From IMG/VR virus record IMGVR_UViG_3300030099_006995, positions 2,581 through 66,580 of that record: DNA of 64,000 nucleotides; one strand, written 5' to 3'. Positions 2,231-20,869 of the stretch are shown here, piece after piece. How positions within the stretch are numbered: the first letter of the stretch is position 1; each line of letters opens with the position of its first letter. The DNA comes from a virus. Made by a program: the position numbers and the translations under genes. The notes below the pieces were generated by a model. It did no database searches and was not told the DNA's origin. It was given only the letters and a program-made list of their open reading frames with translations.

Positions 2231-2630
2231 GAACAGCAAGAACATCCTTGCCGAGCTGAAGAACACCAATATCGCCCTCCGGCAGATGGTGATTTACCAG
2301 CAGCAAACTACTGAGCAACTGCGCTACATCAACGAACTTCTCGACGGATTTACCAATGGAGGCGCTTCTCTCAACGGTTACATCCCAGATGCTTTCGTCC
2401 AAGCATATGTTTCTGTGGTTAGCCCTGTCCTTGCTAAGCGCCTGGGCGACGAAAGCGTTGACCTCGAAGAGCTAATGAAAGGAGCAACGCTTTTAGCTAG
2501 ACGACTACTAGAAGAACTAAGTGCTTACCGCTCTGAACAAGAAGCGAAAGACATCCTCTCTGAAGTGATGGCCCACGTCGATGACCCCTGGGATCGACCA
2601 GATAATTCACCATCTGAGCTAGATCCCTGA
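2199..2630 (+). CDS. hypothetical protein (helical)
   Basis: 143 aa ORF from ATG 2199. Confidence 0.6.
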   Translation: MTLDQNLTLFENSKNILAELKNTNIALRQMVIYQQQTTEQLRYINELLDGFTNGGASLNGYIPDAFVQAYVSVVSPVLAKRLGDESVDLEELMKGATLLARRLLEELSAYRSEQEAKDILSEVMAHVDDPWDRPDNSPSELDP

Positions 2631-2682
2631 GAGAATCCAAAGAGTACTGGCGCCACTGAACGACCATACTTACGCTTTGAAA

Positions 2683-2957
2683 GCCATAGCGTTCAGGAGA
2701 ACCAAGGACTCCTCTCTTACCTCCCTGGTGAAGCACAGCCACTGCTCGGCTCAAGCGGTGGACGACCGTAGTTGGAAGAGCTACTGGCGGCAGGTTTACC
2801 CTTTTACCCCCTGCCACCCTCTGTGCCTATCCCGTGAAAGGGTCCCGTTGAGGACGATCGTTGAAGCCAGGCTCTTCATGGCCAGATTGGGCGATCAGCA
2901 AGGAAGAACGAACGCTATCTCTTTTACCTGGTGCTCCCCACACCAGGTATTTTTTTC
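2683..2957 (+). ncRNA. candidate multi-stem pseudoknotted ncRNA
   Basis: 9-bp closing stem 2686-2694/2910-2918, nested hairpins, 10-bp pseudoknot 2798-2807/2834-2843, TACGCT -10 at 2671 and a terminator downstream. Confidence 0.6.
2925..2957 (+). terminator. intrinsic terminator
   Basis: TACCTGGTG-ctcccca-CACCAGGTA followed by TTTTTTT. Confidence 0.8.
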
Positions 2958-3009
2958 TGCGCAACGGTGCTTTAATTAGTCGTTACATTTCTGGAAATGT
3001 CTTCTATGA

Positions 3010-3771
3010 ATGACAGAGCCCACCCGATTTGAAATTGACGGGGCTCGTCACTACACCACTGATATTCCTGGAAAAGCATACCCCTCGGTCACCACAATCC
3101 TGGGCAAGACCGCATCTGAGCACGCCAAAAAGATGCTCAATAACTGGAATCTCAAGAATCCAGGAGGTAAAGAGAAAGCAGCCGCCAGGGGCACTGCTAT
3201 CCACCAGGCATGCGAGGACTACATCCGTGGCCTGCCGATCAACCTGCCTGATGACTATCTGCCATTCTGGCGTGGCTTAAGTCAACACCTCGATCGATAC
3301 GATTACTTTGTGTGGTCAGAAAAGCCACTGCGACCAGAGTGGAACTACTGCACAGGTAAAGACGGTATCTCCAGGGTCTGGTCACACAAGTATCACTTTT
3401 GTGGCTGCCCTGACCTAATCGGTGTTCGAGGTGGCGTCGTGATCCTTGCGGACTTTAAAACTTCGAATCAACCGTATTGTCGATACTTTCCGACCAAGCA
3501 AGACAGGAGCAACTTCACAGGCTGGAGCAAGCTCAACAAATGTGGGACACAGCTCGGTGCTTACGCCCTAGCCGTAGAGGAGACCCTTGGCCTACAAGTG
3601 GACGCTGCGCAGATCCTGGTTTCAACTCCTGAGATTGATCAAAGCTTCATCCTTCATGGCGATGAACTTAGTCGTTTCCAAACGAAATGGCTTCAAAAGG
3701 TTCGTCGCTATGAAGAGCTCAAAGAGCTCGAACACCAAGACCAACTCGAAAAGGAGGAAGCAGCTCAATGA
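3010..3771 (+). CDS. PD-(D/E)XK superfamily exonuclease
   Basis: YPSVTTIL, RGTAIH, GCPDLI, ADFKTS and QLGAYALA motifs. Confidence 0.85.
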   Translation: MTEPTRFEIDGARHYTTDIPGKAYPSVTTILGKTASEHAKKMLNNWNLKNPGGKEKAAARGTAIHQACEDYIRGLPINLPDDYLPFWRGLSQHLDRYDYFVWSEKPLRPEWNYCTGKDGISRVWSHKYHFCGCPDLIGVRGGVVILADFKTSNQPYCRYFPTKQDRSNFTGWSKLNKCGTQLGAYALAVEETLGLQVDAAQILVSTPEIDQSFILHGDELSRFQTKWLQKVRRYEELKELEHQDQLEKEEAAQ

Positions 3772-4015: not shown

Positions 4016-4771
4016 GTGCCGGATTTCAAGCACCCAGTCGTATACGACCCCCGCACTGGAAAGCTTTTTAGCGATCCTCGACTTGGCGTACTCGACGAGA
4101 TCGTGATCAGCTCCGGGGGTGCCGTAACAAGCGTCGAAGGGCGAACCGGCGCCGTCCTTATTTCTGCTGACGACGTTGGCCTGGGCAGCGTTGACAACAC
4201 ATCTGATCTGGCCAAGCCAGTTTCCAATGCCACCCAGGCAGCAATCAACTCAGCAGTTGCTGGAATCTCTTCCGGTGTCACGTCAATCGGTGGTCAAACT
4301 GGTGATGTCACTCTCGGGGACATCAATCTTGACAATGTTGATAACACCTCTGATGCAGACAAGCCCGTCTCGACGGCACAACAGACTGCGCTTGATCTGA
4401 AGGCTGATGCCTCAGCATTGGCAGCAAAAGCCGACGCCTCGGATCTCAACACCATCGAGTGGACGCTCACTGCAAACGGGAGCAGTGATTACATCTTTGC
4501 GGGGCCAGGTTTCACAGGCACCGTCACTGACCCCACTCTTTATGTGATGCGTGGTCATACTTACAAGTTCACTAACAATATGAATGCTCATCCTTTCCGG
4601 ATTCAGAGCACGACAGGAACCAGTGGCACTCCTTACAACGACGGCATCACAAACAACGCCGTGAGTAATGGCACGCTGGTATGGACAGTGCAAATGAATG
4701 CACCATCAACTTTGTATTACCAGTGCACTGCACATGCTGCGATGAACGGCACGATCAACGTGCTGGCCTAA
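4016..4771 (+). CDS. fibre-repeat protein with C-terminal cupredoxin-like domain
   Basis: Two copies of VTS..G.TG.V.....LxxVDNTSD..KPVS; HPF...YYQCTAHAAMNGTINV carries type-1 Cu ligands. Confidence 0.7.
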   Translation: MPDFKHPVVYDPRTGKLFSDPRLGVLDEIVISSGGAVTSVEGRTGAVLISADDVGLGSVDNTSDLAKPVSNATQAAINSAVAGISSGVTSIGGQTGDVTLGDINLDNVDNTSDADKPVSTAQQTALDLKADASALAAKADASDLNTIEWTLTANGSSDYIFAGPGFTGTVTDPTLYVMRGHTYKFTNNMNAHPFRIQSTTGTSGTPYNDGITNNAVSNGTLVWTVQMNAPSTLYYQCTAHAAMNGTINVLA

Positions 4772-5556
4772 GCAGCCACAGGCTCGTTGACAGGACTATC
4801 AGATTCAAAGCAAATTCTGCAGATGCAATCAAGAGGCTCACAGCCTTTTAACTCGTCAATCTGCGACATAGCCGTCGTAATAGGGCAAGGACTTTCGTAT
4901 CTACCCTCGAATTGCTCACGAGCTGCAGTTAGCTCAGCACCGTTAAGGACTCTGCTGCCGTTGCAAATGTCGTAGCAGAGGTCCATCTCATCTTCGGTGA
5001 GATCACCGAGAGCCTCAAGCTGTACTTCGACCATCTTCCAAGCACCACGAAGGCTCTTACCAACTTCAGTACTTAGCAACTTCAAGCAGTCATGTGAGTA
5101 GCTGCAGAATTCCTCAGCCTCCTCATCGGTGTAACCGCCCCAGGTCGGCTTATCCATCACATTGGCCACCTCTGCAGTTCCAGGCACAATGCTCAATTCA
5201 CGCATTGTGCCGTACTTCATCGCTTCAAGCAGTGCAGGCAGATCTGACTGACCAGCGGACGATCGGATCCAACTAGCTACGTCATCAATAGTCAAACTTG
5301 ACCGGTACTCACCTGTCTCGTAGTAATCAAGGAGAGTATTGGTAGTAACTCCCAGAGACTCCGCCAGTTTCCGAATTTTGGAAACGCCAACATTTCTTGG
5401 GTCTACAGAACCACGGAGATACTTCGTGAGAGTTCCAATAGTGATTCCGAGCTTGGCACACAGCTCACGCTGCGAGAGCTTGTTGGCCGCCAGTGCCTGA
5501 TGCAGTGATTGCACAAATCTCTGCGTCGACAGATCTGGGGAAGGTACCTCGGTCAT
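4768..5556 (-). CDS. XRE-family HTH transcriptional regulator (repressor candidate)
   Basis: LSQRELCAKLGITIGTLTKYLRG...IRKLAESLGV; divergent from the primase gene. Confidence 0.8.
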   Translation of the reverse strand: MTEVPSPDLSTQRFVQSLHQALAANKLSQRELCAKLGITIGTLTKYLRGSVDPRNVGVSKIRKLAESLGVTTNTLLDYYETGEYRSSLTIDDVASWIRSSAGQSDLPALLEAMKYGTMRELSIVPGTAEVANVMDKPTWGGYTDEEAEEFCSYSHDCLKLLSTEVGKSLRGAWKMVEVQLEALGDLTEDEMDLCYDICNGSRVLNGAELTAAREQFEGRYESPCPITTAMSQIDELKGCEPLDCICRICFESDSPVNEPVAA

Positions 5557-18674: not shown

Positions 18675-18938
18675 ATGCCACGTCCTGCAACACCGGCCTG
18701 CCAGCGCATGGTCACACCCGCAGAGGCGTGCCAAATCCTTGGGATTTCTGAGACCACACTGAAGCGCTGGCGGCACAGCGACAGGCTTATGCGTGGCGTG
18801 CACTACGTCCAGTACGGACCAAAGACGATTCGATATGACGCTGACTGGCTCAAGCGCTTCAGGGCCACGGGTGGGCGCGGCTCACACAAGCTTGATGTTG
18901 CTAATCACCTGAAGTCAATGAAGCGATCAGCTCCATAG
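18675..18938 (+). CDS. xis: excisionase-like HTH protein
   Basis: TPAEACQILGISETTLKRWR...GVHY...IRYD; convergent on the integrase. Confidence 0.7.
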   Translation: MPRPATPACQRMVTPAEACQILGISETTLKRWRHSDRLMRGVHYVQYGPKTIRYDADWLKRFRATGGRGSHKLDVANHLKSMKRSAP

Positions 18939-20496
18939 CCAGCTTTTGCTTTTCGGACGAGGAGAGGTTCTTGACCAGATCATCGACACCAGCCACTCTC
19001 TTGACCTTGTCCTGCTGCGGGAAGCTCAGCACGCCGGAGTAGTGGTTTCTCATCGTGGTTTCTTTATCCCCAATCCAATAAGCGATCTGCCGCTGGCTGT
19101 ACTCACCAATGCGGCACATCATGCTGACGTAGGTGTGGCGCAGGTTGTACGGACGGCGATAGCGAACACCGGCCTCAGCGCATGCCCGCATGAAGTACCT
19201 GCGGAAGTTGTGCCAGTCATAAGGCAGCCGGAAGTCATCGCCTGCCCCTGGCCCCTGGAACACAAGACGCTTACGCCACTCCTGGTTCGCCATGCAGGCG
19301 AGCTTCCTGGGCATCAGCGACTCAACCGCCTTCTTGAACAGGTTTTCAAAGCCCGGAACAAAGGTGTTGAGCTCAGGCTGGTGCTCCGTACCGTTCTTGA
19401 CGCGCTTGAACCTTTTCTCGGGGTCGAGGTGCAAACGGTGCTTCTTAAAAACAGCTAGCTCAAACAAGACTGGGTCTCCTGTTAAGACAAATTCCTGAGC
19501 TCGAGGAACGTGGTAGCCGAGCTGGTGCCCTTCCCAAAGACCCAGGATGTGATCCCAGCGCAGGGCTAACACTTCATTGGGCCTTGCACCAGTCGCAAGC
19601 AAAATTGCGAACAGAGGGAAGTAAGGCTTCAGATAGTCATTCCTAAGGAATGCCTTACACAACGCCTCAGCTTCGGGTGGCGTGAAAGGCTGCGCTCGAG
19701 AATTCTCATCGCCGACCTTCATGTCTTCGATGATTATGTCGACCTGCTTGCGCTCGGTATTGATCGGGTTGCCGCGACCTTCGCTGTCCTGAACGCCCCA
19801 GTGAATCCCCGGCCGAACACCTGAGGACTTTGGCTTTTTACTGGCTCGACTCAGCGCGGCCGACAACAGTGCATAGACACCACGCAAAGTGCTGTACTTA
19901 AAACCCTCAGCAATCCACGCCTGTGTCATTTGCATGGCGATGTCTTCATCCAGGTCGCTGCATTCGACATGCCCAAAAACTTCACCGTTCTTGCTGCGCA
20001 TAGCCAGCAACTTGAAAGCTTGATCGCCGTAAGTATCTTTCTGGTTCTCGGAACCAAGAGCCTGCTGGATATGCCAACGCAGGGCAAATCCAAGCGTGCC
20101 GAATGGATACGTCTTTGAAACCTTGGGCCGATTGATGTGATCAGTCCTTAGCTCCCCCATCCAATACCCGTCCTGCATGCCTTCGAGGATTCCCTGGAAG
20201 GTCATGAACTTCTCGGGGTACTGCTTAAGGAACGCCAGCGCATCCTCTTTGCTGGTGATATCCCTCGGGCAGTTGATACCAAGGCTCTGGCAAACGATCG
20301 AACGATCTCGTGAGTAGTCCCTCGCCCGGATACGAAAGCCACGGTTGTTGCTTTCAACCTCGATAGCAAGCGAACGCTTACGTCCATTACGTGGCGGCAA
20401 GTCGACCTTGTGAATTACTCCTGCAGCAGGTGCCATGAGCGTCGTCCAGTTAGGTGCAATCACCTCCACCGGTTTGACCTTGTCCGATAGCCCCAT
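18901..20496 (-). CDS. int: tyrosine integrase
   Basis: LATGARPNEVLALRW, KNG, YNLRHTY, IAYWIGD, NHY catalytic set. Confidence 0.92.
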   Translation of the reverse strand: MGLSDKVKPVEVIAPNWTTLMAPAAGVIHKVDLPPRNGRKRSLAIEVESNNRGFRIRARDYSRDRSIVCQSLGINCPRDITSKEDALAFLKQYPEKFMTFQGILEGMQDGYWMGELRTDHINRPKVSKTYPFGTLGFALRWHIQQALGSENQKDTYGDQAFKLLAMRSKNGEVFGHVECSDLDEDIAMQMTQAWIAEGFKYSTLRGVYALLSAALSRASKKPKSSGVRPGIHWGVQDSEGRGNPINTERKQVDIIIEDMKVGDENSRAQPFTPPEAEALCKAFLRNDYLKPYFPLFAILLATGARPNEVLALRWDHILGLWEGHQLGYHVPRAQEFVLTGDPVLFELAVFKKHRLHLDPEKRFKRVKNGTEHQPELNTFVPGFENLFKKAVESLMPRKLACMANQEWRKRLVFQGPGAGDDFRLPYDWHNFRRYFMRACAEAGVRYRRPYNLRHTYVSMMCRIGEYSQRQIAYWIGDKETTMRNHYSGVLSFPQQDKVKRVAGVDDLVKNLSSSEKQKLAMELIASLTSGD

Positions 20497-20796: not shown

Positions 20797-20869
20797 GGGG
20801 CCTTGGCACAGTTGGTAGCGCGCCTGCATGGCATGCAGGAGGACAGGAGTTCGAATCTCCTAGGCTCCA
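20797..20869 (+). tRNA. tRNA-Ala(GGC)
   Basis: Acceptor GGGGCCT/AGGCTCC with G3:U70; anticodon arm CCTGC-ATGGCAT-GCAGG; T arm AGGAG-TTCGAAT-CTCCT; CCA not encoded. Confidence 0.93.

What the first reader, a model, noticed from the sequence alone, without database searches (positions are those of the whole stretch)
2671..2957. Candidate ~270-nt pseudoknotted phage ncRNA with its own promoter and terminator
Seen: a 380-bp gap with no convincing gene. It holds a perfect 9-bp closing stem (ATAGCGTTC 2686-2694/GAACGCTAT 2910-2918) and a small hairpin AGGAG/CTCCT. A GCACAG/CTGTGC stem (2733/2821) encloses three hairpins: CCACTGCT/AGCGGTGG, GTAGTT/AGCTAC and GGCAGG/CCTGCC. A second domain has GATCG/CGATC with TGAAG/CTTCA. 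The loop sequence ACCCTTTTAC (2798-2807) pairs over 10 bp (one G-U) with GTGAAAGGGT (2834-2843), forming a pseudoknot. A TACGCT -10 sits just upstream and a terminator just downstream. I see no tRNA, tmRNA, RNase P or SRP signatures. Inference: a stand-alone structured RNA, possibly a new class (6S-like polymerase decoy, antitoxin mimic, or partner of the adjacent PD-(D/E)XK nuclease).
Basis: partly seen in the sequence, partly recalled or inferred. Interest (0 to 1): 0.8.

Follow-up and report, generated by a model that had tools for sequence, protein, structure and literature searches.

The report
New structured RNA family in phages
The gap holds a real, non-coding, intricately folded RNA that belongs to an uncatalogued family found in many aquatic phage genomes, and its function is still unknown.

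Summary

- **Family:** A model of the 3' half (R1) finds the element in 20 of 59, 54 of 80, 4 of 4, 11 of 11 and 20 of 32 source sets.
- **Context:** 29 of these are IMG/VR contigs with no exonuclease in the fetched DNA.
- **Structure:** On a plain MAFFT alignment of 53 distinct sequences, a 29-pair core is 83% paired against 66% in shuffles. 24 pairs carry compensatory changes.
- **Fold:** The core is a four-way junction (P2, P2.1 with Px and P3, P5, P6), closed by P1 and followed by a terminator.
- **Not known families:** Rfam 15 and ARAGORN give nothing, and there are no tandem repeats.
- **Not coding:** The 100-aa ORF is broken in 9 of 9 relatives.

- The 10-bp pseudoknot and the TGAAG/CTTCA stem are not conserved.
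- The link to the nuclease does not hold.
- The promoter rests only on an invariant TAnnnT.

Function is unknown. My best guess is a stable RNA formed at the 3' end of an early transcript.

The parts
2671..2676 (+). TACGCT, a -10-like TAnnnT box about 9 nt upstream of the closing stem
   Evidence: T2671, A2672 and T2676 are invariant in 10 of 10 subgroup sequences while 2673-2675 vary. No full sigma-70 promoter is called. Its function is inferred.
2686..2694 (+). P1 5' strand (ATAGCGTTC), which pairs with 2910-2918
   Evidence: In A9 the inner 6 pairs are 73% paired and the outer 3 are 63%, with changes on both sides at 4 pairs. L094 replaces the whole helix with GGCAATCAG/CTGATTGTC (my reading).
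2695..2713 (+). Small hairpin AGGAG 2695-2699 / CTCCT 2709-2713
   Evidence: 72% paired, with 4 of 5 pairs changed on both sides in A9.
2716..2722 (+). P2 5' strand CTTACCT (A2719 bulged), which pairs with AGGAAG 2901-2906
   Evidence: Anchored test on 34 sequences: the first 6 pairs are 92% paired against 78% permuted. On 53 sequences, 7 of 8 pairs are changed on both sides. Subgroup result.
2723..2725 (+). P2.1 5' strand CCC, which pairs with GGG 2840-2842
   Evidence: Pair 1 is G-U in 14 and C-G in 20 of 34 sequences. 94% of cells are paired on 53 sequences. 100% in the subgroup.
2733..2826 (+). Px domain: GCACAG 2733-2738 / CTGTGC 2821-2826, enclosing P3, P4 and P4b
   Evidence: 98% paired in A9. 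Other subgroups have different complementary sequences at the same place (my reading).
2739..2761 (+). P3 hairpin: CCACTGC / 9-nt loop TCGGCTCAA (2746-2754) / GCGGTGG
   Evidence: 89% paired, with 5 of 6 pairs changed on both sides on 53 sequences. The loop starts UCGG in most members.
2768..2784 (+). P4 hairpin GTAGTT / AGCTAC. This arm is variable and is absent in some members.
   Evidence: 68% paired in A9. Absent in L010, L026 and L027.
2789..2815 (+). P4b hairpin GGCAGG / CCTGCC with loop TTTACCCTTTTACCC, found only in this subgroup
Evidence: 100% paired, with 3 pairs changed on both sides.
2843..2854 (+). P5 hairpin: TCC / loop CGTTGA / GGA
   Evidence: 100% paired, with 3 of 3 pairs changed on both sides.
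2856..2896 (+). P6: GATCG 2856-2860 / CGATC 2892-2896 (P6a), CC 2867-2868 / GG 2890-2891 (P6b), and a variable tip
   Evidence: P6a has 7 of 7 pairs changed on both sides, and 6 of 7 in sequences not used for the model. The TGAAG/CTTCA tip is not conserved (47%).
2901..2918 (+). P2 3' strand AGGAAG 2901-2906 and P1 3' strand GAACGCTAT 2910-2918
2925..2956 (+). Intrinsic terminator: 9-bp hairpin 2925-2949 plus T7 2950-2956
   Evidence: 84% paired, with 4 pairs changed on both sides in A9.
2677..2979 (+). 100-aa ORF. It is not a gene.
   Evidence: In 9 of 9 relatives the homologous frame stops after 1-62 codons, and every one of them has indels whose length is not a multiple of 3. No Pfam hit.

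Best explanation
Window 2683-2956 (+ strand) encodes a member of a family of about 170-300-nt structured non-coding RNAs carried by tailed phages of aquatic metagenomes. The family matches nothing in Rfam 15.

**Fold.** The conserved core is a four-way junction.
- P2 is the closing helix of the core.
- P2.1 is 3 bp and lies directly 3' of the P2 5' strand. It leads into a long arm (Px) ending in hairpin P3, which has a UCGG-starting loop.
- P5 is a 3-4-bp hairpin with a 6-nt loop of consensus CNUYGA.
- P6 is a 7-bp helix, then a 5' bulge, then a CC/GG step.
- A further helix P1 joins the 5' and 3' ends.
- A terminator or U-run follows.

**Mechanism (inferred).** The RNA is made as the 3'-terminal part of an early, DNA-metabolism transcript. 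In the window's subgroup it may come from its own -10-only promoter instead. Transcription ends at the terminator. The compact P1-closed fold then persists as a stable RNA that works through its conserved loops and junctions on a protein or RNA partner that has not been identified.

**How sure.** That it is a real, selected RNA structure: about 0.95. That it acts as a stable trans-acting RNA and not in cis: about 0.4.
For: **Family membership.**
- R1 hits lie on the gene strand in 20 of 59, 54 of 80, 4 of 4, 11 of 11 and 20 of 32 sources.
- This includes sequences that were not used to build R1.

**Covariation.**
- A5: 87.5% paired against 67.1% shuffled, score 0.592 against 0.202, 0 of 500 shuffles as high.
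- A7, new sequences only: 97.4% against 75.3%, score 0.530 against 0.123.
- A8, a plain MAFFT alignment of 53 sequences: 83.3% against 65.8%, 24 of 29 pairs changed on both sides, score 0.468 against 0.177, slid controls at most 0.156.

**Strand and composition.**
- 152 G-U cells against 74 A-C cells.
- Core GC is above flank GC in 51 of 53 sequences.

**Not coding.**

**Position at a 3' end.**
- There is a terminator or U-run after the RNA.
- The RNA starts 4-9 nt after an upstream stop codon in 26 of 53 sequences, and overlaps the ORF end in 4.
- A conserved TAnnnT-type box (CGTTACATT) lies between the RNA and the next gene in the exonuclease group.

**Accessory, context-independent element.**
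- It is absent from three CheckV-100 relatives and from S-EIVl.
- It occurs beside unrelated genes such as RusA, a sigma factor and TerL.

A P1 helix joining both ends is typical of processed stable RNAs. This last point comes from general knowledge, not from a test here.
Against: - There is no expression evidence. The only metatranscriptome contigs that could be laid cover 3018-3212 of the nuclease gene and none of the RNA. Contigs cannot show transcript ends in any case.
- No partner was identified.
- Starting a few nt after a stop codon fits a purely cis-acting 3'-UTR element just as well.
- In L151 and L159 a strong terminator-like hairpin lies about 10 nt upstream of the RNA, which is awkward for simple co-transcription.
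- The window's subgroup lacks the 3' GUAAGUCC motif that most of the family has.
- The P3-P5 loop complementarity holds in 91% of cells but shows no covariation.
- A5 and A7 are fitted to the model, so they lean towards its structure.
- The sequences are related to one another, so the shuffle counts are not probabilities.
Confidence: 0.45

Rival explanations
1. It is a cis-acting element of the early transcript. It could be a 3'-UTR structure that protects the upstream mRNA from 3' exonucleases or sets where it ends. It could be a put-like RNA that alters the transcribing polymerase. Or it could be a ligand-sensing switch that controls read-through into the next gene.
For: - The RNA abuts the upstream stop codon (4-9 nt in 26 of 53 sequences).
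- It is followed directly by a U-run or terminator.
- In most members P1 itself is followed by the U-run.
- Conserved junction nucleotides resemble aptamers.
Against: - Upstream and downstream genes differ between subgroups, so there is no common regulated gene.
- A conserved -10-like box lies between the RNA and the nuclease gene.
- I found no conserved alternative pairing with the terminator. The CCWGG match seen in the window, L070 and L071 is absent in L008, L073 and L075 (my reading).
- There is no riboswitch hit in Rfam.
- A four-way junction with about 30 or more conserved pairs is far more than mRNA protection needs.
Confidence: 0.3
2. It is a self-cleaving or otherwise catalytic RNA that processes the polycistronic transcript at the gene boundary.
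For: - It is intergenic, in phage operons, and in the same orientation as the genes.
- It has a complex junction fold with invariant unpaired nucleotides (UCGG, CNUYGA, GUAAGUCC).
- Its 5' end lies right after a stop codon.
- Known phage ribozymes sit in similar places. This is general knowledge.
Against: - There is no match to any ribozyme family in Rfam 15, even at E up to 10.
- The GUAAGUCC motif is missing in the window's own subgroup.
- Nothing here tests cleavage.
Confidence: 0.1
3. The structure works as single-stranded DNA. For example, it could be a priming or origin signal of the replication module.
For: It lies among SSB, nuclease, RusA and primase-helicase genes.
Against: - G-U (G-T) pairs are frequent and conserved. 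One P3 pair is U-G in 44 of 53 sequences and P2.1 pair 1 is G-U in 26. There are 152 G-U cells against 74 A-C cells.
- It is always in the same orientation as the flanking genes and is followed by a terminator.
Confidence: 0.04
4. It is a chance fold or a small protein gene (the ORF at 2677-2979).
For: - The single-sequence z-score is only -2.2.
- A 100-aa ORF exists.
Against: - The ORF is broken in 9 of 9 relatives.
- Covariation is strong on independent alignments.
Confidence: 0.01

Closest known systems
Orphan complex-fold RNAs of bacteria and phages (raiA motif, ROOL, GOLLD, OLE)
   Same: - It is a multi-helix RNA with strong covariation and invariant loop and junction nucleotides.
- It is carried by phages.
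- It has no obvious regulated gene and its function is unknown.
- For PMC12286853 / 10.1101/2024.12.08.627333 I saw only the listing and the start of the abstract. It reports cryo-EM structures of large ornate bacterial RNAs, naming GOLLD.
   Different: - There is no sequence or structure match to their Rfam models.
- It is much smaller than ROOL, GOLLD or OLE.
- It has a different architecture, a four-way junction closed by P1.
- It sits at the 3' end of an ORF.
phi29 pRNA
   Same: Two loops of the same RNA are complementary over 4 nt: the P3 loop UCGG and the P5 loop UCGA, pairable in 91% of cells. This could in principle link molecules hand in hand. The pRNA comparison is recalled, not tested.
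   Different: - There is no covariation between the loops.
- It is not next to packaging genes in most contexts.
- The fold is different.
- There is no Rfam pRNA hit.
HK022 put RNAs and other cis-acting antitermination RNAs
   Same: It is a phage-encoded structured RNA inside an early operon, close to terminators.
   Different: - put RNAs are two simple stem-loops just downstream of early promoters (recalled).
- This RNA is larger, sits after an ORF, and is itself followed by the terminator.
Four-way-junction riboswitch aptamers (for example SAM-I, cobalamin)
   Same: It has a tight four-way junction with conserved junction nucleotides and a possible loop-loop contact.
   Different: - There is no Rfam hit at E up to 10.
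- I found no conserved expression platform.
- It is not in the 5' UTR of a consistent gene class.
6S RNA
   Same: Size is about 200-270 nt, and the 5' and 3' ends are paired.
   Different: - 6S is a long rod with a central bubble (recalled). This RNA is multi-branched.
- There is no 6S model hit.

Membership tests
Any Rfam 15 family (4227 models) | Covariance-model score at or above the family's gathering score | tested here: not met
   - In the whole window only a tRNA at 20797-20869 reaches gathering.
- In 2550-3050 at E up to 10 there are only three sub-threshold hits, two of which fall on the terminator hairpin region.
- Five related loci give 0 hits at E up to 1.
tRNA / tmRNA | Cloverleaf or tmRNA architecture detected by ARAGORN | tested here: not met
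   0 genes in 2500-3100.
6S RNA | Rod-like fold with a central bubble, and a match to the 6S model | tested here: not met
   No hit. The fold is a four-way junction.
Type III antitoxin (ToxI-like) mimic | Tandem direct repeats of a short unit | tested here: not met
   Tandem Repeats Finder gives 0 rows at minimum score 30 in 2550-3050.
Transcriptional riboswitch | An aptamer upstream of a consistent gene class, with a conserved alternative pairing to the terminator | tested here: not met
   - Downstream genes differ between subgroups.
- I read no conserved antiterminator pairing in the sequences.
- This was a reading by eye, not a formal search.
Intrinsic (Rho-independent) terminator at the 3' end | A GC-rich hairpin followed by a U-run | tested here: met
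   2925-2949 plus T7. The hairpin covaries in the subgroup.
Protein-coding gene (ORF 2677-2979) | The reading frame is kept in relatives | tested here: not met
   The frame is broken in 9 of 9 relatives, and all have frameshifting indels. No Pfam hit.
Obligate partner of the adjacent PD-(D/E)XK nuclease | Co-occurrence of the RNA and the nuclease gene | tested here: not met
   - 29 of 29 pattern-found contigs with the RNA have no nuclease homologue in the fetched 1.9-14.9 kb (tblastn).
- Relatives with the nuclease but without the RNA exist.
- Only part of each contig was searched.
Independent gene with its own sigma-70 promoter | -35 and -10 hexamers at the right spacing upstream of the 5' end | tested here: inconclusive
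   - No two-hexamer site was found.
- TAnnnT is invariant in 10 of 10 subgroup sequences.
- In 26 of 53 family members only 4-9 nt separate the stop codon and the RNA.
Discrete stable transcript | Defined 5' and 3' ends and accumulation in cells | not testable with these tools
   Only contigs of metatranscriptomes were available, and none covers the RNA.

The most novel reading that the evidence does not exclude
This is a new, widespread class of phage RNA with its own biochemical activity. One version is an RNA that assembles into dimers or rings through the conserved complementary P3 (UCGG) and P5 (UCGA) loops, as an RNA-only or RNA-protein machine. The other version is a new self-processing ribozyme that cuts early transcripts at gene boundaries.
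Probability: 0.15. Interest if true: 0.85.

Novelty: categorically new. Interest (0 to 1): 0.7.

Why it matters
A roughly 200-nt four-way-junction RNA with dozens of covarying pairs is the kind of molecule that has repeatedly turned out to be a ribozyme, a riboswitch or the core of a ribonucleoprotein. This one recurs in at least 100 fetched phage loci from marine and other aquatic metagenomes.

It sits in temperate relatives of Synechococcus phage S-EIVl. A cyanobacterial host is an inference from that relationship, not something shown here. The same RNA also occurs in unrelated phage backbones, always at the 3' end of an early or DNA-metabolism gene. It is accessory, since some CheckV-100 relatives lack it.

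It offers a defined, testable new RNA class. The family now has a seed alignment, a structure and a search model.

Tried and rejected
**Searches that found nothing.**
- Nucleotide searches of INPHARED phages with the gap (distant mode) and with 12 kb (near mode) gave no match.
- An exact 27-mer of the P4b hairpin gave 0 hits in IMG/VR.
- Literature searches and passages of PMC10690425 gave no description of this RNA. These searches cover only the held library.

**Expression.** Of 24 runs listed, 2 RNA runs held 8% of the words. Laying X19, X20, X23 and X24 gave one contig each in X19 and X20, covering only 3018-3212 of the nuclease gene, and nothing on the RNA. This says nothing either way about expression.

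**Modelling limits.**
I used a 94-position model of the 3' domain instead.

**Upstream 149-aa protein.**
- No Pfam, PHROG, NCBIfam or PDB match.
- 48 unnamed homologues.
- The AlphaFold model is all-helical, with pLDDT 67 and pTM 0.28. This was too weak for a fold search, so I ran none.

**Ideas tested and not supported.**
- P3-P5 loop pairing is 91% pairable, but the shuffles equal the observed value. It remains a possibility and is not shown.
- CGTTACATT as a general phage promoter: there are only 2 exact copies in the window, which is not above chance.
- A riboswitch-like competition between J (CCWGG) and the terminator is seen in the window, L070 and L071 but not in L008, L073 or L075. I rejected it.

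**Resemblances considered from memory only and dropped.**
- The RNase P P4 helix (GGGCUU / AAG-U-CCC with a bulged U, CAUAGGGC, CAAGG). The order of the elements is wrong and there is no model hit.
- Hairpin-ribozyme loop A (A-GUC).
- A K-turn at the P1 internal loop.
- The 11-nt tetraloop receptor in P6.

**Archaeal host.** Four relatives lie in MAGs labelled Poseidoniales or Methanobacteriota. Three different viral contigs sit in one MAG, and the window encodes an endolysin. I read this as mis-binning.

Full report
**What is there.**
The window is an IMG/VR viral contig. The 379-bp gap 2631-3009 lies between a 149-aa ORF (2181-2630) and a PD-(D/E)XK nuclease gene (3010-3771; Pfam E = 5.8e-4, below the curated cut-off). 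The + strand minimum-energy fold reproduces the nested ones (-101.1 kcal/mol, z = -2.20, 2 of 200 shuffles as good). The - strand gives z = -1.47. The scan calls the terminator at 2925-2949 plus T7, and calls no two-hexamer promoter. Rfam 15 gives nothing at gathering. At E up to 10 it gives only three sub-threshold hits, two of them on the terminator hairpin region. ARAGORN finds nothing, and there are no tandem repeats.

**It is not coding.**
The 100-aa ORF 2677-2979 has no Pfam hit. In the 9 closest distinct relatives the homologous frame meets a stop after 1-62 codons, and each relative carries indels whose length is not a multiple of three. L002 has no counterpart ORF.

**It belongs to a family.**
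- Loci found through the nuclease protein in IMG/VR showed alignable intergenic sequences.
- I built a covariance model R1 of the 3' domain (P5, P6, tail; 94 positions, 12 pairs) from 15 sequences.
- R1 hits 20 of 59 sources. These include L012, L013 and L014, which were not in the seed; there the RNA lies further upstream.
- R1 also hits 54 of 80 metagenome loci and 4 of 4 loci in GTDB MAG contigs.
- All hits in these nuclease-anchored loci are on the strand of the nuclease gene, and the window has one copy.
- R1 gives no convincing hit in the whole records of three relatives of CheckV completeness 100, one fragment, or Synechococcus phage S-EIVl. The best E-values are 0.024 and 0.83. The element is therefore accessory.
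- S-EIVl is the closest cultured relative: nuclease 42.7% and TerL 51.4% amino-acid identity.

**It is not tied to the nuclease.**
Two pattern scans of IMG/VR used conserved RNA motifs only. They returned 11 stretches and 43 stretches. 9 plus 20 new contigs have R1 hits with E from 1.9e-15 to 0.002. 12 of the 32 new stretches have none. None of these 29 has a homologue of the nuclease or of the 149-aa protein in the 1.9-14.9 kb fetched. Their neighbours include a RusA resolvase and a sigma factor (L153), a protein with a weak SSB match (L159), and TerL about 2 kb away (L160).

**Structure.**
From reading the members I derived a core:
- P2;
- directly after its 5' strand, a 3-bp P2.1 whose 3' strand directly precedes P5;
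- a long arm (Px) carrying hairpin P3 and variable hairpins;
- P5, which is 3-4 bp with a 6-nt loop of consensus CNUYGA;
- P6a of 7 bp, then a 5' bulge, then P6b (CC/GG), then a variable tip;
- two or three linker bases, then the P2 3' strand;
- P1 closing the whole.

This makes P2, P2.1, P5 and P6 a tight four-way junction.

**Tests of the structure.**
- RNAalifold on the first alignment found P5 and P6a, with 10 of 11 pairs compensatory.
- A5, 34 representatives fitted to R1: 87.5% paired against 67.1% shuffled, covariation 0.592 against 0.202 (0 of 500), slid controls at most 0.113.
- A7, 24 hits from the new contigs: 97.4% against 75.3%, covariation 0.530 against 0.123, and 6 of 7 P6a pairs compensatory. 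P5 is invariant there because the search pattern fixed it.
- A8, a plain MAFFT alignment of the core of 53 distinct sequences. These are 34 plus 19. I dropped L174, L151, L172, L154 and L164 because my boundary finder failed on them.
- On A8, with my 29-pair structure: 83.3% paired against 65.8% (0 of 500); 24 pairs with changes on both sides against 18.3 (0 of 500); covariation 0.468 against 0.177 (0 of 500); slid controls at most 0.156.
- Cells paired by helix on A8: P2 73%, P2.1 94%, P3 89%, P5 100%, P6a 81%, P6b 73%. About ten rows are shifted by one column at the 5' end by MAFFT, which lowers P2.
- Motif-anchored counts in a script give P2 at 92% against 78% permuted. P2.1 pair 1 is G-U in 14 and C-G in 20 of 34.
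- P3 is 97.5% paired against 65% permuted. Those stems were located by complementarity, so only the permutation contrast counts.
- G-U cells outnumber A-C cells 152 to 74, and core GC exceeds flank GC in 51 of 53. This fits an RNA of the + strand.
- The sequences are related to one another, so the shuffle counts are not probabilities.

**The window's own subgroup (10 sequences, A9).**
- Px, P3, GGCAGG/CCTGCC, GATCG/CGATC, P2.1 and P5 are 98-100% paired.
- The closing stem, the AGGAG/CTCCT hairpin and the terminator are kept with compensatory changes.
- TGAAG/CTTCA is not kept (47%).
L094 lacks the loop yet keeps AAAAGGGU.
- Its GGG is the P2.1 strand. I therefore do not accept the 10-bp pseudoknot. 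A short ACCC contact that competes with P2.1 cannot be excluded.
- This subgroup also lacks the GUAAGUCC 3' motif of most members and has a separate hairpin terminator.

**Transcription context.**
- In A9, T2671, A2672 and T2676 are invariant while the three bases between them vary. That is the pattern expected of a -10 box, but there is no -35.
- Elsewhere in the family the RNA begins 4-9 nt after the stop codon of an open frame of at least 70 codons in 26 of 53 sequences.
- It overlaps the ORF end in 4 sequences, lies 69-76 nt from P2.1 in 4, and 81-134 nt from P2.1 in the window's subgroup.
- For L177 the only frame of at least 70 codons stops 87 nt from P2.1. In 8 sequences no such frame was found.
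- Downstream there is a U-run or a canonical terminator.
- In the nuclease group a conserved CGTTACATT (TAnnnT-like) box precedes the nuclease start. It is not a general motif of the window.
- I infer that the RNA is the last element of its transcription unit, mostly co-transcribed with the upstream gene.

**Function.**
Nothing here shows function.
- The upstream protein is uninformative.
- There is no RNA-level evidence.
- The P3 loop (UCGG) and P5 loop (UCGA) can pair in 91% of cells, but without covariation.
- I rank the options as follows: a stable P1-closed RNA acting in trans, about 0.4-0.45; a cis-acting 3'-UTR, antitermination or switch element, about 0.3; a ribozyme, about 0.1; ssDNA, about 0.04.

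**Host and lifestyle.**
The window encodes an integrase, an endolysin, TerL and a tail protein, a cI-like HTH protein and tRNA-Ala. So it is a temperate tailed phage of a bacterium. A cyanobacterial host is inferred only from the kinship to S-EIVl.

**Novelty.**
There is no Rfam 15 match. Nothing turned up in the papers I could search or in the passages of PMC10690425 I read.

Noticed in passing
window 2981-2989, and about 25-45 nt upstream of the nuclease start in the loci: CGTTACATT is conserved upstream of the nuclease gene in nearly all relatives. It contains a TAnnnT box. In low-GC members it is part of a palindrome, GTTACAT..ATGTAAC. It is probably the nuclease gene's -10 element and/or an operator. 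The window has only 2 exact copies (2981 and 47744), which is not above chance.
   Followed up: partly
L089 and L009 (also L003), upstream of the nuclease gene: A different intergenic element sits at the same place. It shares the 5' AGGGCUU, the 3' GUGUAAGUCC and a CGAGGA hairpin with the family, but R1 does not detect it. It may be a reduced or divergent variant.
   Followed up: no
L154 and L158, just upstream of the RNA 5' end: An extra ATGTAAGTCC lies directly before the RNA's 5' GGGC. This may be the 3' end of a second, tandem copy.
   Followed up: no
L151 and L159: A strong terminator-like hairpin (GCCCCC..GGGGGC plus a T-run) lies about 10 nt upstream of the RNA. This leaves open how the RNA is transcribed there.
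   Followed up: no
L015, L107 and L004, upstream of the nuclease gene: Another unrelated intergenic sequence of about 270 nt follows a small extra ORF. It has no Rfam hit and its nature is unknown.
   Followed up: no
window 4016-4771 (+): A 251-aa ORF has tail-fibre-like repeats (..DNTSD..KPVS..) and a C-terminal cupredoxin-like C-x2-H-x2-M motif. It gives a weak amicyanin hit, E = 0.0065, far below the cut-off.
   Followed up: no
window 18901-20496 (-) and 20797-20869 (+): A tyrosine-integrase-like gene lies next to tRNA-Ala(GGC). This is the likely attachment region of a temperate phage. A cI-like HTH gene lies at 4768-5556 (-).
   Followed up: no
L145-L148: Four related viral contigs are filed in MAGs labelled Poseidoniales or Methanobacteriota archaeon, three of them in one MAG. 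The window encodes an endolysin, so this looks like mis-binning and not an archaeal host.
   Followed up: partly
A7 rows: The word GUAAG occurs twice in most members. It appears once as the linker plus the start of the P2 3' strand, and once in the 3' GUAAGUCC before the P1 3' strand.
   Followed up: no
window 3018-3212: Two metatranscriptome contig sets of one study hold a 190-nt piece of the nuclease gene of a close relative, with 8-9 differences.
   Followed up: no
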